Positions 44,496 to 47,072 of a stretch of 64,000 nt of DNA are shown one piece after another (position 1 is the first letter of the stretch; the number at the start of each line of letters is the position of its first letter). The DNA is taken from assembly GCA_963842085.1 (NCBI GenBank), contig CAWJET010000001.1, positions 2,272,001-2,336,000 on the forward strand, in the 5' to 3' direction. Both the position numbers and the translations under genes were made by a program. Below the pieces are notes generated by a model. That model was not told where the DNA came from, ran no database searches, and saw only the letters and a list, made by a program, of their open reading frames with translations. Source of the DNA: an uncultured delta proteobacterium (lineage in GTDB: Bacteria; Desulfobacterota; Binatia; Binatales; Binataceae).

Positions 44496-44553
44496 GCGAT
44501 CGCGCACTGAGGTGACGCCTGGCGCGGAGTAGGGAAGGGTAAATCACTCTATT

Positions 44554-44580
44554 GAATGTGAAACCCACCGTGGGTTTCAC
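44554..44580. repeat. REP-like hairpin
   Basis: GTGAAACCCA-CCG-TGGGTTTCAC perfect 10-bp stem between convergent genes; a related copy lies at 26480. Confidence 0.6.
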
Positions 44581-44615
44581 GCTTCCCTGGGCACGGGTGA
44601 CCCCTGCACCCAATG

Positions 44616-45068
44616 TTAAGAAAGCTGCGCGCCTAGCTGAAGCACCAGCACGACCGTCATCGCCGCGAGGCAGTAGCGATGATCTTTGTAGATCGCGCGC
44701 GCGAGACGGCTTTGCTCCTCGGGTGAGTCTGACGCTTTACCCAGCCGCGCTGCGTTCGGAATGGTGCGCACGCGAGCGAGTCCGATCGCGCTGGCGGCGG
44801 CAGCGAGCGATATCCATTCGATCCACCAATGATACGCGCCGAGCACAATCTCAATGACTATGACGAGCAGCGTCAGCAGCATCACGAGCGCGATCAGCCG
44901 ATTCATCGGCCACGCTTCCCGCGTGACGCGCCGGTAATATCCCGAGATCGACGCCAGCGCATTTGCGGGAACTTCGCCGTCGTGGCCGCGCACCTGCACG
45001 TCGAACATCAGATCGAACCACAGTACGCAGATCAGGAATGCGGCCCCGGCCGCGGCGAATGCGTGCAT
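44616..45068 (-). CDS. Hypothetical membrane protein
   Basis: MHAFAAAGAAFLICVLWFDLMFDVQVR; about 4 TM segments; ATG is 2 bp after the stop of the duplicated rrf2 tail. Confidence 0.75.
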   Translation of the reverse strand: MHAFAAAGAAFLICVLWFDLMFDVQVRGHDGEVPANALASISGYYRRVTREAWPMNRLIALVMLLTLLVIVIEIVLGAYHWWIEWISLAAAASAIGLARVRTIPNAARLGKASDSPEEQSRLARAIYKDHRYCLAAMTVVLVLQLGAQLS

Positions 45069-45070
45069 GT

Positions 45071-45153
45071 CTAGATGCTGTAGTTGATCGCCTGCCTGCG
45101 CTTCTCCGACAACGCCTGCAACGTGACGCCGCGCAGGATGCCGTTGACCGAAT
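45071..45153 (-). repeat. Displaced 3' end of the Rrf2 gene (att-like direct repeat, copy 1)
   Basis: 78/83 identical to 46638-46720; all 5 differences are synonymous. Confidence 0.92.
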
Positions 45154-45190
45154 GAACGACACGACGGTCGACCTGAGGCGCTAGGTGTTC

Positions 45191-45358
45191 CTATTTGAGC
45201 CAATAGCCGACGACGACGCCGATGAGAGCGCTAGCCCATTTCACGTAGTCGTCGGGGTACTGTTTAGATATCATCACGTAGGAGCAGACACTGAGAATCG
45301 TCGCGCTCACACCCAGTTGGGCGAACAACACGATCGTTTTTCGCCAGTCCGCCCCCAT
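45191..45358 (-). CDS. 55-aa two-TM membrane protein (not in the ORF track)
   Basis: Translated by hand: MGADWRKTIVLFAQLGVSATILSVCSYVMISKQYPDDYVKWASALIGVVVGYWLK; ATG is 13 bp after the upstream stop, preceded by AGCAGG. Confidence 0.65.
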   Translation of the reverse strand: MGADWRKTIVLFAQLGVSATILSVCSYVMISKQYPDDYVKWASALIGVVVGYWLK

Positions 45359-45371
45359 TGCCTGCTACAGG

Positions 45372-45620
45372 CTAGCGGCTGATTAACTCTTTGACGGTTC
45401 TGACAGCTTCGCGGATGTGAGTACCAAAGGGGGCTTCTTCATCGTCTTCGACAGCAGTGGTAGCGGTCTGCTGCGCCGCCGTCTTCTCATTTCCGGCAAC
45501 AGTGAATGTTGCAGATGAATCGTCACCAAGAGGAAAACCTGATGGCTCGTAGTTTTTGATGGTCCACTGATTTAGCCACCCTGCCATGCATTGCGTTGTC
45601 TGGGTAAATATCGTGCTCAT
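45372..45620 (-). CDS. 82-aa hypothetical protein
   Basis: RBS GGAGAGGG before the ATG; directly downstream of the Ntn hydrolase gene. Confidence 0.6.
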   Translation of the reverse strand: MSTIFTQTTQCMAGWLNQWTIKNYEPSGFPLGDDSSATFTVAGNEKTAAQQTATTAVEDDEEAPFGTHIREAVRTVKELISR

Positions 45621-45655
45621 TAGTTCGCCCTCTCCGCTCTCTCGCGACAGGAAAT

Positions 45656-46462
45656 TCAGTTTTCGCCGCTCAGATCTTTTCGCTGAATTATGCGCAACCC
45701 CTCGCGCCGGGTTATTACGGCTACATCAATCGCGCCACCCACGCCGCGAATCCCGATGCTAAGCTTTTGCGCCGTTACTGTGGCACGGATCAAAAAAACC
45801 GCCAAGTCTATGGAATCTTGCAGCGGAAGGACCGCAAACGGTATAGCCAACGAAAGTAGTCGCAAGTTCTGAACCAGCGTAGCCACCTGCGAGTCCTGTA
45901 AATTAAGAATTCGCTGAACGATCTGGGGAAGTTTTACGTCGTAACCCTGAAGCAGTCGAATCGCCGCTTCTGATTGGCCTCCGATGGTAATTCCAAAGTC
46001 ATTCGGCGACTGCTCTGCAGGGGTCGGTTGGCCAGGGATCGTAAGAACGTAGACCGAGCCGTACGCTGCATCAGGATCATACCCTCCGATACAAAATGTC
46101 ATCCCAGGCCCCTTATAGTCTGGGGGCATTCTCTCCCTCCAACGCGCCAAGTAGAAGTCGCTAAGTCGTTGAGCGAAGTCGCGCACATTTTCCTTGTCTT
46201 GTGGCAACTGGGTTTCAAACTCAGGAAGGAAACTATGAGCCGTTCGGAGGTCGGTCGGCTTGGTTCCCATTACCGCATCGCCATAAGTGACTGCCGCAAC
46301 TCTACGGGGATTGTCTCGGTCACCAAAAGTCAAAAGCTTCGTTGCGTTGTCGAAGTTCACGTTTATGGGCATTTGACCTGGAGCCGCCGCTGTGAGGGTC
46401 ACTCGACTGTCCGCGGCCAAGACCACTCCCTCAGGCCCCTTGATGACAATCCCTAAAGACAA
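45656..46462 (-). CDS. Proteasome beta-subunit-like Ntn hydrolase with Ser1
   Basis: (M)SLGIVIKGPEGVVLAADSRVT puts D at 17 and R at 19; NATKL; TYG; C-terminal GVGGAIDVAVITRREG. Confidence 0.8.
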   Translation of the reverse strand: MSLGIVIKGPEGVVLAADSRVTLTAAAPGQMPINVNFDNATKLLTFGDRDNPRRVAAVTYGDAVMGTKPTDLRTAHSFLPEFETQLPQDKENVRDFAQRLSDFYLARWRERMPPDYKGPGMTFCIGGYDPDAAYGSVYVLTIPGQPTPAEQSPNDFGITIGGQSEAAIRLLQGYDVKLPQIVQRILNLQDSQVATLVQNLRLLSLAIPFAVLPLQDSIDLAVFLIRATVTAQKLSIGIRGVGGAIDVAVITRREGLRIIQRKDLSGEN

Positions 46463-46536
46463 CTTGCCCCCCGTTTCTGCAGAATTGCGCGTCCGCCGAG
46501 GTTGTTCACTACGCTCCGTCGCCAGAGCGATTTTTT

Positions 46537-46565
46537 ACCATAGTATTTGGCCGCGCTTGGCTCAA
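46537..46565 (-). promoter_or_regulatory. Sigma70-like promoter of the cassette
   Basis: TTGAGC-N17-TATGGT on the minus strand, ~75 bp upstream of the TTG start. Confidence 0.45.
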
Positions 46566-46637
46566 ACGGAAAACCCCTCGTCTACTGCGATTTCCTGCAA
46601 GAATACCATCCCATAAAAAATGAAACGACCTCTCCGG

Positions 46638-47072
46638 CTAAATGCTGTAGTTGATCGCTTGCCTGCGCTTCTCCGACAACGCCTGCAACGTCACTCCGCG
46701 CAGGATGCCGTTGACGGAATCGCGCACTTCGCGCCATACGTCGCGCATCGCGCACGGTTGCTCGCGCGGGCAGGTCGACGAGCTTTCCTCCAGGCATTCC
46801 ACGGGCGTGTAGTCGCCCTCGATTATCTCCACCACGTCGGCCATCGTGATTCGCGCCGGCGGCCGGGCCAGCATGTACCCGCCGCTCGGCCCCTTCTGAC
46901 TGGCGACCAAACCTCCACGCTTGAGCTCGATCAGCAGCCGGCGCAGGTAGTTCTCGGGGATATCCTGGGTCTCCGCTATTTCCTCGACGCGCACCGGCAA
47001 GTTGGCAGGATAACGATCCGCCAACAGCAGCAGGGCCTTCAGTGAGTAGTCAACGCCGACGCCAAACTTCAT
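46638..47072 (-). CDS. Rrf2 family regulator with three Cys (IscR/CymR-like)
   Basis: DYSLKAL, IPENYLRRLL, SQKGPSGGYMLAR, ECL...C...PC.MRDVW, C-terminal NYSI. Confidence 0.93.
   Translation of the reverse strand: MKFGVGVDYSLKALLLLADRYPANLPVRVEEIAETQDIPENYLRRLLIELKRGGLVASQKGPSGGYMLARPPARITMADVVEIIEGDYTPVECLEESSSTCPREQPCAMRDVWREVRDSVNGILRGVTLQALSEKRRQAINYSI

What the first reader, a model, noticed from the sequence alone, without database searches (positions are those of the whole stretch)
45191..46565. Candidate new system: proteasome-beta-like Ser1 Ntn hydrolase + 82-aa protein + two-TM microprotein
Seen: three closely spaced minus-strand ORFs (gaps of 35 and 13 bp) behind their own promoter fill the inserted cassette. 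After Met removal the first begins S1-LGIVIKGPEGVVLAA-D17-S-R19, has a TKL lysine matching proteasome K33, and ends with GGAIDVAVIT. Known: proteasome beta, HslV, Anbu and BPH use Thr1 with D/E17 and K33, while archaeal connectase is a beta homologue that can use Ser1 and acts as a protein ligase. No alpha subunit, HslU or Anbu-type partner genes are nearby. Inference: a self-contained mobile protease or transpeptidase module acting on the small protein and/or gating a membrane effector, an architecture typical of abortive-infection or toxin systems.
Basis: partly seen in the sequence, partly recalled or inferred. Interest (0 to 1): 0.85.

Follow-up and report, generated by a model that had tools for sequence, protein, structure and literature searches.

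The report
Proteasome-like protease with swappable toxins
A 1.5-kb inserted cassette encodes an uncharacterised relative of the proteasome protease, a small adaptor protein and a tiny membrane protein; in other microbes the same protease-adaptor pair sits in front of classic bacterial toxin genes, which gives this orphan protease family a first functional lead.

Summary
Three co-oriented minus-strand genes (A 268 aa, B 82 aa, C 55 aa; gaps of 35 and 13 nt) fill a 1,484-nt low-GC insert. The insert is bracketed by an 83-nt duplication of the 3' end of an Rrf2 gene and is missing from the same-genus genomes examined.

A folds confidently as a proteasome-beta-type Ntn hydrolase. Ser or Thr follows Met1 directly across the family, and the Asp/Glu17 and Lys33 equivalents are kept.

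The new result is the gene context. In 80 genome loci, A is almost always followed by a small B protein. B's N-terminal motif tracks the A phylogeny. B's C-terminal tail changes with the third gene, which is a known type II toxin in 39 of 80 loci (MazF/PemK 13, Doc 11, ParE/RelE 14, YafQ 1). The window's third gene is a conserved two-helix membrane peptide. A lies upstream of that peptide in 20 of 27 metagenome loci with enough flank.

Best reading: a three-gene toxin-antitoxin-type module. B bridges a dedicated Ser1 peptidase and a swappable toxin. Which way the proteolysis acts is inferred, not shown.

A's family was probably catalogued in 2021 as a PMI-type proteasome homologue with no functional context. 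My searches found no report linking it to toxins.

The parts
45656..46462 (-). A: 268-aa proteasome-beta-like Ntn peptidase. TTG start; Ser directly after Met1; the D18, R20 and K42 equivalents of D/E17, R19 and K33.
   Evidence: ORF. AlphaFold2 pLDDT 97.0, pTM 0.92. Foldseek top hits are all 20S beta subunits, E 2.7e-8, probability 1.00. VIA: Anbu Z 19.1, 20S beta Z 18-19. Conservation. Profile alignment to Thermoplasma beta.
45372..45620 (-). B: 82-aa acidic adaptor or antitoxin candidate. N-terminal tag (T-rich stretch, W, then W-T-I-K-N-Y). C-terminal tail P-F-G-T-H-I-R-E-A-V.
   Evidence: ORF. The N-terminal motif aligns with 34 relatives. The tail motif FG..[IVL]R.A occurs in 25 of 53 C-peptide loci. 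No Pfam, NCBIfam, PADLOC or PHROG match.
45191..45358 (-). C: 55-aa two-helix membrane peptide ending in G-Y-W-L-K. Candidate toxin or effector.
   Evidence: ORF. Alignment of 29 relatives with invariant W41, A42, G47, G51, Y52, W53. Model has helices 4-30 and 37-54, pLDDT 72.7. It occupies the position that known toxins hold in relatives.
46463..46637 (-). 175-nt leader upstream of A; any promoter would lie here. GGGGGG lies 5 nt before the TTG start.
   Evidence: Sequence. No consensus promoter found.
46638..46720 (.). Right copy of the 83-nt direct repeat. It is the true 3' end of the Rrf2 gene (46638-47072, minus strand).
45071..45153 (.). Left copy of the 83-nt direct repeat: a duplicated Rrf2 3' end, now in front of the downstream membrane-protein gene.
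   Evidence: Single copy in relatives L085, L088 and L089.
45154..46637 (-). The inserted cassette as a whole (1,484 nt between the repeats).
   Evidence: The same unitig, 45095-46689, is present in soil runs of 2 studies.

Best explanation
The cassette is a three-gene toxin-antitoxin-type module carried on a small integrase-less insert.

A is an active N-terminal-nucleophile peptidase of the proteasome-beta fold. Methionine removal exposes Ser1, which acts with Asp17 and Lys41 (mature numbering).

B is a two-part adaptor or antitoxin. Its N-terminal tag of about 25 residues is specific for its own A. Its C-terminal tail binds and neutralises whatever toxin is encoded next.

C, a two-helix membrane peptide, is the toxin in this version.

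Most likely A recognises the tag and degrades B. The module would then carry its own antitoxin-turnover machinery and would not depend on host Lon or Clp. When B is no longer replenished, or when A is stimulated, C is freed and damages the membrane.

Shown: the fold, the conserved catalytic positions, the insertion, the conserved A-B-toxin gene order, the co-variation of B's tail with toxin type, and the tracking of B's tag with the A phylogeny.

Inferred: that A and B bind, that A cleaves B, that B neutralises C, and that C is toxic.
For: (1) A's fold and active site.
- AlphaFold2 pLDDT 97.0, pTM 0.92.
- Foldseek top hits are all 20S beta subunits, probability 1.00.
- VIA gives Anbu Z 19.1 (rmsd 3.0, 195 aligned) and 20S beta Z 18-19, with model residue 2 aligned to chain residue 1 of catalytic subunits, BPH, HslV and connectase.
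- In 71 diverse relatives, position 2 is S in 55, T in 14 and A in 1. Position 18 is D or E in 70. Position 42 is K in 68 and R in 3.
- The profile alignment maps these positions onto T1, E17, R19 and K33.

(2) Conserved gene order. In the best 80 of 135 genome loci, an ORF of at least 40 aa starts within -35 to +120 nt of A's stop in 71 of 80.

(3) The third gene is a known type II toxin in 39 of 80 loci: PemK/MazF 13, Fic/Doc 11, ParE/RelE 14 (2 below Pfam's cut-off) and YafQ 1.

(4) B's last ~14 residues sort by toxin type.
- ...EEDEAWADL or LSDEAL..FE with MazF.
- L.E.L..Y..IW..LA with Doc.
- YSEYR..RL with ParE.
- FG..IR.A with the C peptide (25 of 53 C loci).

(5) On a tree of 81 A proteins, my four B N-terminal classes need 4 changes (minimum 3; shuffled mean 30.9; 0 of 200 shuffles as low). 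Toxin type needs 13 changes.

(6) An HMM of the W-type tag, tested on 5,568 ORFs of loci not used to build it, hit 5 ORFs. All 5 lie directly downstream of an A gene.

(7) Starting from C instead, A lies upstream in 20 of 27 metagenome loci with at least 1,199 nt of flank. In one exception (L135) the first gene is another protease, a ClpP-like SDH serine proteinase (PF01972, E 1.2e-19), followed by a B with the same tail.

(8) Complex prediction of A with B gave weak support only. The median ipSAE was 0.44 (runs 0.15, 0.44, 0.50) and the best of 3 controls was 0.00. That mark was reached by 58 of 80 solved complexes and 2 of 110 mismatched pairs. At 0.60 or under it was reached by only 7 of those 80 solved complexes and by both mismatches that passed. 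The runs agree in at least 72% of contacts, and the partner's pLDDT is at least 51.

(9) The cassette is a recent, self-contained insertion.
Against: - No experiment bears on any step.
- B matches no antitoxin family: 0 of 30 B proteins reached a Pfam cut-off. C matches no toxin family. In the window itself the 'toxin' label therefore rests on gene position and analogy.
- The B N-terminal classes were assigned by my own reading. The W-type HMM does not detect the F and T classes, so homology among the classes is not shown. Related sequences share labels, which inflates the tree test.
- Some A-B pairs have no recognisable third gene (for example L048, L071, L073). A-B may therefore have a function of its own.
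- C-like peptides also follow TIR-domain genes with no A or B (L144, L145) and a DUF6941 gene (L118).
- The direction of proteolysis is not constrained by any result. The same architecture fits an adaptor that hands the toxin to A.
- The complex prediction passed only weakly.
- The 80 loci are the best-scoring 80 of 135, not a random sample.
Confidence: 0.55

Rival explanations
1. Type VI-like adaptor model. B is a proteolytic adaptor: its tail captures the toxin and its tag docks on A, which then degrades the toxin. A and B together are the antidote.
For: The two-part architecture of B fits this model equally well. [quoted passage not shown] Replacement of A by a ClpP-like protease in L135 also fits.
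Against: By my recollection, B's tails look like the toxin-wrapping tails of type II antitoxins, which neutralise by binding alone. Folded toxins such as MazF dimers are poor substrates for a peptidase with no unfoldase partner, and no AAA+ gene is nearby. It is hard to see how a membrane peptide would be delivered.
Confidence: 0.2
2. Stabiliser or maturation model. A is needed for B to work, either by trimming B's N-terminus or by holding B as the SecB-like chaperone does in toxin-antitoxin-chaperone systems. Loss of A would then unleash the toxin.
For: The tag tracks A's phylogeny. Three-gene TA systems with a helper are known; the Panacea preprint names TAC modules (passage read).
Against: The near-invariant nucleophile, acid and lysine point to catalysis rather than simple holding. 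No evidence exists for a processing site.
Confidence: 0.1
3. Connectase-like ligase or peptide-maturation model. A is a sequence-specific transpeptidase acting on B's conserved leader, as in a RiPP-like system. The third gene provides immunity or export.
For: Connectase is a proteasome homologue that ligates at a short recognition motif (abstract; passages). B has a conserved leader and a variable C-terminal part.
Against: Connectase is a distant structural match (Z 11.6, against 18-19 for 20S beta and Anbu). A keeps helices H1/H2 and has no two-helix S3/S4 insertion (features as described). The third genes are intracellular toxins such as MazF, Doc and ParE, not immunity or export proteins.
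Confidence: 0.07
4. C is not a toxin but a membrane anchor or sensor for the A-B pair. Alternatively, the three genes are neighbours with no joint function.
For: C has no family match. C-like peptides occur in other contexts (TIR, DUF6941). In 3 of 4 soil runs the contigs carry 1-nt deletions inside C, so an intact C may be dispensable.
Against: C has A upstream in 20 of 27 loci. A B-tail motif specific to C recurs. C sits exactly where known toxins sit in relatives. Frameshifts in a toxin gene are also what one expects of a toxin, and homopolymer sequencing error is not excluded.
Confidence: 0.08

Closest known systems
PMI-type proteasome homologues ('Proteasome homolog with Multiple Insertions', Fuchs, Alva and Lupas 2021, PMC8665760; Results and Discussion read)
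   Same: Propeptide-less Thr1/Ser1 proteasome-like proteins found patchily in bacteria and Euryarchaeota. They carry an insertion between helices H3 and H4. A's model has two extra helices at 178-203 in exactly that place.
   Different: Membership could not be checked, because the paper's sequences and alignments are in an outside repository and in supplements I could not see. The paper states that no genomic context suggestive of function was found. The toxin linkage reported here is therefore additional.
Anbu and 20S proteasome beta subunits
   Same: These are the best structural matches (Z 19.1 and 18-19). They share the same catalytic positions.
   Different: No Anbu operon partners, alpha subunit or unfoldase gene is nearby. 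PF00227 scores 12.1 bits against a cut-off of 22.4. The H3/H4 insertion may prevent stacking into double rings; that is the paper's suggestion and was not tested here.
Connectase (MJ0548 family)
   Same: A proteasome homologue that may use Ser1 and acts on a short recognition motif in one specific partner protein.
   Different: Z is only 11.6. A keeps H1/H2 and lacks the lid insertion. The family is not confined to methanogens.
Predicted three-component TA systems with a COG2856 (ImmA/IrrE-type) Zn protease, an Xre antitoxin and a RelE or PIN toxin (Makarova, Wolf and Koonin 2009, PMC2701414; passages read)
   Same: A dedicated protease gene is linked to an antitoxin-like protein and to swappable toxins.
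   Different: The protease fold is unrelated (metzincin). The antitoxin there is a DNA-binding HTH protein. That paper does not mention proteasome or Ntn (0 occurrences of either word).
MaOC1 orthocaspase next to a ParE/ParD module in Microcystis (PMC7935541; abstract read)
   Same: A protease gene lies beside a TA pair flanked by direct repeats. The protease cleaves the antitoxin and so releases the toxin. This is an experimental precedent for the proposed mechanism.
   Different: It is a cysteine protease and a single locus. It has no dedicated N-terminal tag and no promiscuous toxin swapping.
Panacea (PanA) hyperpromiscuous antitoxin domain, and the SocAB adaptor system (bioRxiv 10.1101/2021.05.07.442387; passages read)
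   Same: One conserved antitoxin-side module is combined with many unrelated toxin families. SocA shows that an antitoxin can act as a protease adaptor.
   Different: PanA is a folded DUF4065 domain that neutralises directly. Here the conserved part is a short tag plus a separate peptidase gene.
Small membrane toxins such as Hok and GhoT (recalled; no call)
   Same: C is about 55 aa, hydrophobic and predicted helical.
   Different: No sequence relation was found. Those toxins are controlled by RNA or by an mRNA-cleaving antitoxin, not by a protein adaptor.

Membership tests
Proteasome-like Ntn hydrolases (peptidase family T1 in the broad sense) | alpha-beta-beta-alpha sandwich fold of 20S beta, HslV and Anbu | tested here: met
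   Model pLDDT 97. Foldseek probability 1.00 to 20S beta. VIA Z 18-19 over 182-195 residues.
Proteasome-like Ntn hydrolases (peptidase family T1 in the broad sense) | Thr or Ser nucleophile at the mature N-terminus | tested here: met
   Ser2 follows Met1. Across the family this position is S in 55, T in 14 and A in 1 of 71. Model residue 2 aligns with Thr1 of the catalytic chains. Met removal is inferred.
Proteasome-like Ntn hydrolases (peptidase family T1 in the broad sense) | Asp/Glu17 and Lys33 equivalents | tested here: met
   D or E in 70 of 71; K in 68 and R in 3 of 71.
Proteasome-like Ntn hydrolases (peptidase family T1 in the broad sense) | Gly47 oxyanion hole | tested here: inconclusive
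   G61 is kept in 70 of 71, but HMMER aligns it with G50 rather than G47 of the Thermoplasma chain.
Pfam PF00227 Proteasome | Score at or above the gathering cut-off (22.4 bits) | tested here: not met
   12.1 bits, E 0.15, residues 7-22 only.
PMI-type homologues (Fuchs et al. 2021) | Insertion between H3 and H4 (PMI-2 to PMI-6) | tested here: met
   Extra helices at 178-186 and 190-203, between H165-172 and H214-234. The feature is described.
PMI-type homologues (Fuchs et al. 2021) | Clustering with the published PMI sequence sets | not testable with these tools
   The sequence sets are in an outside repository and in supplements that I could not see.
Connectase | Two-helix insertion between S3 and S4 covering the active site; H1/H2 absent | tested here: not met
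   The model has only a loop at 26-32, and it has helices at 76-83 and 93-111. The features are described.
Anbu | Conserved operon partners next to the gene | tested here: not met
   The partner list is recalled, not taken from a call. Among 20 neighbouring ORFs scanned, only housekeeping families appeared.
HslV | Adjacent HslU AAA+ unfoldase | tested here: not met
   None in 33-58 kb of the window. The only AAA hit is the DNA polymerase III tau subunit.
Type II toxin-antitoxin systems | Adjacent, co-oriented, tightly spaced small genes, one of them a toxin of a known family | tested here: inconclusive
   Met in relatives: 39 of 80 loci carry MazF, Doc, ParE/RelE or YafQ in third place. In the window the third gene has no known family.
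Type II toxin-antitoxin systems | Antitoxin with a DNA-binding domain plus a toxin-binding tail | tested here: not met
   None of 30 B proteins reaches a Pfam cut-off. B has a tail that co-varies with the toxin but no DNA-binding domain.
Type II toxin-antitoxin systems | Toxicity of the toxin and rescue by the antitoxin | not testable with these tools
   This needs expression assays.
Toxin-antitoxin-chaperone (TAC) systems | The third gene is a SecB-like chaperone | tested here: not met
   The extra gene here is a proteasome-fold protein.
Known anti-phage defence systems (PADLOC-DB 2.0) | A match of any component to a defence-system model | tested here: not met
   0 families for A, B or C at E<=1.

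The most novel reading that the evidence does not exclude
A proteasome-family peptidase and a ~25-residue N-terminal tag form a portable, host-independent degradation switch. The module brings its own protease and its own degron. That would let it control unrelated toxins (MazF, Doc, ParE, YafQ, membrane peptides and at least one unknown 170-216-aa family) in phyla from Acidobacteriota to methanogenic archaea. If true, it is a new class of three-component toxin-antitoxin or defence module. It would also be the first physiological role for the orphan PMI-type proteasome homologues, and a natural tag-and-protease pair that could be reused as a programmable degradation tool.
Probability: 0.35. 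Interest if true: 0.85.

Novelty: new variant of a known kind. Interest (0 to 1): 0.78.

Why it matters
The 2021 catalogue of 22 new proteasome homologues states that no genomic context suggesting a function could be found. Here one such family shows a sharp, repeatable context. It has a small partner whose tag follows the protease's phylogeny and whose tail follows a swappable toxin. That turns 'function unknown' into a set of simple experiments.

For toxin-antitoxin biology, it would add a module that encodes its own protease. This bears on the long-running question of how and when antitoxins are degraded.

It would also explain how one module can work across bacteria and archaea that have different housekeeping proteases.

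Tried and rejected
- PADLOC, NCBIfam and PHROGs gave nothing useful for A, B or C. There were two weak results: a sub-threshold GtrA-like hit for C (18.3 bits against a cut-off of 50), and a hit of A's C-terminal part to a PHROG of unknown function.
- tblastn of A against 72,556 plasmid and 50,697 phage records gave no match. IMG/VR holds 18 loci, 6 of them at 40% identity or more.
- The promoter scan found no site.
- Expression: no RNA holder is listed among the runs that hold the cassette.
- Population data: no contig joins across the cassette in 4 soil runs, so excision was not seen.
- I compared the two copies of the 83-nt repeat with relatives to see which copy is native. The result is unresolved: 66-72 against 68-73 matches of 83.
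- Pfam on 30 B proteins found none above cut-off. One B (L037) has a sub-threshold hit to an antitoxin model, PF12910, E 4.7e-4.
- The W-type tag HMM did not find the F and T tag classes. A common origin of all the tags is therefore not shown.
- The ESM Atlas search for C returned only unnamed clusters of 53-60-aa proteins, scores 0.90-0.94.
- A connectase-like ligase reading was considered and ranked low, for the reasons given under the rivals.
- A defence-island context was looked for and not found.
- Literature: no paper in the searchable library joins proteasome homologues with antitoxins or TA toxins. Subscription journals and supplements were not searchable.
Full report
**1. The observation.**
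The three minus-strand ORFs exist as described.
- A: 45656-46462, 268 aa, TTG start preceded by a G-run.
- B: 45372-45620, 82 aa.
- C: 45191-45358, 55 aa.
- The gaps are 35 and 13 nt.

They fill a 1,484-nt block between two copies of an 83-nt repeat (45071-45153 and 46638-46720, 94% identical). The repeat is the last 83 nt of an Rrf2-family regulator gene (46638-47072; Pfam PF02082, E 4e-39). GC is 0.52-0.56 inside the block and 0.60-0.66 outside it.

Twelve of 12 same-genus genomes match the flanks at 75-88% identity, and none of the listed matches covers the block (41 weaker matches were not listed). In 3 of the 7 relatives' loci I fetched, both flanks meet through a single copy of the 83 nt (L085, L088, L089). 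This is therefore a recent insertion with no integrase gene of its own.

The own genome (4.93 Mb, 2 contigs) holds one copy of A. The neighbourhood is housekeeping: sulfite reductase, PAPS reductase, a luciferase-like oxidoreductase, superoxide dismutase, DNA polymerase III tau, a tRNA synthetase and thioredoxin. No defence genes, alpha subunit, HslU or Anbu partners are nearby. The claimed promoter was not found by the consensus scan.

**2. What A is.**
Sequence-only searches barely see the relationship.
- PF00227 scores 12.1 bits against a cut-off of 22.4.
- phmmer against PDB gives E 0.03 to the Thermoplasma beta subunit.
- A 71-member family profile gives E 3e-4.

Structure is unambiguous.
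- The AlphaFold2 model has pLDDT 97.0 and pTM 0.92.
- All top Foldseek hits are 20S beta subunits (E 2.7e-8, probability 1.00).
- An exhaustive structural scan gives Anbu Z 19.1, 20S beta Z 18-19, BPH 13.9, HslV 13.5 and connectase 11.6. More distant Ntn hydrolases follow.
- Model residue 2 aligns with residue 1 (Thr1) of the catalytic chains.

The family is large. There are 1,881 proteins at E<=1e-3 in the 90% clusters, and 1,180 clusters at 50% identity.

Every member I inspected starts M-S/T-L. Across 71 diverse members the conserved positions are as follows:
- Position 2: S in 55, T in 14, A in 1.
- D/E18: kept in 70 of 71.
- K42: K in 68, R in 3.
- R20: kept in 69 of 71.

A Ser/Thr interchange at the first residue after Met is what a catalytic N-terminal nucleophile would show. 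There is no propeptide.

The deposited gene call for this protein (P0001, 254 aa) starts 14 residues too late and so loses the nucleophile.

Relative to 20S beta, the model has two extra helices (178-203) between H3 and H4. This is the insertion that Fuchs, Alva and Lupas describe for their PMI-2 to PMI-6 groups. The taxonomic spread also fits PMI: many bacterial phyla plus Methanobacterium, Methanosarcinales and Methanoperedens. I could not test membership, because the published sequence sets were not available to me.

**3. What follows A elsewhere.**
A pattern scan of 185,579 species genomes gave 135 loci, and the best 80 were kept. In 71 of 80, an ORF of at least 40 aa starts within -35 to +120 nt of A's stop. 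After hand-curating starts I had 76 candidates, a few of them doubtful.

These B proteins match no Pfam family (0 of 30 above cut-off), but they have a clear two-part build.

*N-terminal part.* The first ~25-45 residues fall into four motif classes by my reading. I call them W2, W, F and T. W2 and W align together, and the window's B aligns with them.

*C-terminal part.* The last ~14 residues sort by the gene that comes next. That gene is a known type II toxin in 39 of 80 loci:
- PemK/MazF: 13.
- Fic/Doc: 11.
- ParE/RelE: 14 (2 of them just below Pfam's cut-off).
- YafQ: 1.

Each toxin family goes with its own B tail. The N-terminal classes, in contrast, are mixed across toxin types.

On a maximum-likelihood tree of 81 A proteins, the N-terminal class needs 4 changes (minimum 3; shuffled mean 30.9; 0 of 200 shuffles as low). 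Toxin type needs 13 changes. These labels are my own, and related sequences share labels, so the result shows clustering rather than proving co-evolution.

An HMM of the W/W2 tag was tested on loci not used to build it (5,568 ORFs). It hit 5 ORFs, all directly downstream of an A gene. The same HMM does not detect the F and T classes.

The window's A groups with the T-class, MazF-linked clade (SH-aLRT 98). The B of its nearest relative, L090 on an IMG/VR contig, has an N-terminal tag much like the window's and an antitoxin-like tail, and a MazF gene follows it.

**4. The window's third gene.**
C has relatives in only 2 of the 80 genome loci (L044, L064). A scan of metagenome contigs with a C alignment gave 53 loci.

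The peptide is well conserved. It has a hydrophobic helix, a loop with the consensus Y-P-D-D-Y-x-K-W, a second hydrophobic stretch, and a fixed G-Y-W-L-K/R C-terminus. It models as two helices, 4-30 and 37-54, at pLDDT 72.7.

Of the 27 loci with at least 1,199 nt upstream, 20 have an A-family gene on the same strand just before a small ORF and C. Seven more show a truncated A at the contig edge. Some of these A proteins are only 23-32% identical to the window's.

The small ORF carries the tail F-G-x-x-[IVL]-R-x-A in 25 of 53 loci, as the window's B does.

The exceptions are informative.
- L135: the first gene is a ClpP-like SDH serine proteinase, followed by a B with the same tail and then C.
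- L118: the first gene is DUF6941.
- L144 and L145: two TIR-domain genes precede C, with no B.

C therefore behaves as an effector that can be attached to different upstream partners, most often A.

**5. Mechanism.**
The simplest reading is a three-gene toxin-antitoxin-type module. B's tail neutralises the toxin, B's tag belongs to A, and A is a working peptidase.

I favour A degrading B. That would make the module independent of host Lon or Clp and would fit its spread across very different phyla. The MaOC1 orthocaspase, which cleaves the antitoxin of an adjacent ParDE pair (abstract), is an experimental precedent.

The main rival is that B is an adaptor that hands the toxin to A, as SocA does with ClpXP (passage). 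Nothing I ran separates the two.

Complex prediction of A with B passed only weakly. The median ipSAE was 0.44 and the best control was 0.00. In the tool's calibration, that mark was reached by 58 of 80 solved complexes and 2 of 110 mismatched pairs. Scores of 0.60 or under were reached by only 7 of those 80 and by both mismatches that passed. Contact agreement was at least 72% and the partner's pLDDT at least 51.

**6. Comparison and novelty.**
Three-component TA systems are known or predicted: a chaperone in TAC systems, and a COG2856 Zn protease with Xre. One conserved antitoxin module that serves many toxin families is known from Panacea. A proteasome-fold peptidase in this role is not reported in anything I could search.
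- 'proteasome-like' with 'toxin-antitoxin' returned one unrelated review.
- The title phrase of the 2021 catalogue with 'antitoxin' returned nothing.
- 'Ntn hydrolase' with 'antitoxin' returned three unrelated papers.
- Further combinations returned nothing relevant.
- Makarova et al. 2009 do not mention proteasome or Ntn.
- The 2021 catalogue says explicitly that no informative genomic context was found.

Subscription journals and supplementary tables were not searchable, so an earlier mention cannot be excluded.

Earlier notes of this scan record other proteasome homologues beside nucleases, Bil-type operons or LexA-like proteins. None records them beside TA toxins.

I rate this a new variant of a known kind.

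**7. Other data.**
The cassette occurs almost unchanged in soil metagenome runs of 2 studies. The contigs of 3 of 4 runs lack one base at 45235, and those of 2 of 4 lack one base at 45352. Both sites are G-runs inside C. The window's frame is the one conserved in relatives. These are therefore either real frameshifts that disable C in some populations or homopolymer sequencing errors.

Noticed in passing
window 44514-44632: A dispersed repeat of about 100 nt between the luciferase-like oxidoreductase gene and the membrane-protein gene. It has dozens of 85-95% identical copies in the own genome and in all same-genus genomes searched. Contig depth in soil runs spikes from about 15 to as much as 2,400. 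It looks like a REP- or MITE-like element.
   Followed up: partly
window 45656-46462 (protein P0001): The public gene call for A is 254 aa and starts 14 residues downstream. This removes the catalytic Ser and the first strand. The true start is the TTG at 46462.
   Followed up: yes
window 45235 and 45352: One-base deletions relative to the window, both in G-runs inside gene C. They appear in contigs of 3 of 4 and 2 of 4 soil runs respectively. They are either frameshifted C alleles or homopolymer errors.
   Followed up: partly
window 44616-45203 (-): The membrane-protein gene downstream of Rrf2 (real start probably the ATG near 45068) was directly coupled to the Rrf2 stop codon in relatives. 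The cassette now separates the two genes. This gene is itself missing in some same-genus genomes (L086, L087).
   Followed up: partly
L001, L002, L003, L006, L009, L046 (about 530-600 nt downstream of A): After the MazF gene there is a second small ORF. It has a B-like N-terminal tag and a different tail of the form F..L[RK]K[VA]SRK. A similar KVSRK-type tail ends the only B in some A-B pairs that lack a toxin gene (L048, L073). Its role is unknown.
   Followed up: partly
L051:6163-6684, L058:6048-6698, L061:6135-6707: A third-gene family of 170-216 aa shares an N-terminal G-D-I-F-A-D-like motif and has no Pfam or PHROG match. By its position it is a candidate new toxin.
   Followed up: partly
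L144 and L145 (1593-3162); L135 (8-1382); L118 (2225-3144): C-like membrane peptides also lie directly after two TIR-domain genes (ThsB_TIR and TIR_2), after a ClpP-like SDH serine proteinase plus a B-like ORF, and after a DUF6941 gene plus a B-like ORF.
   Followed up: partly
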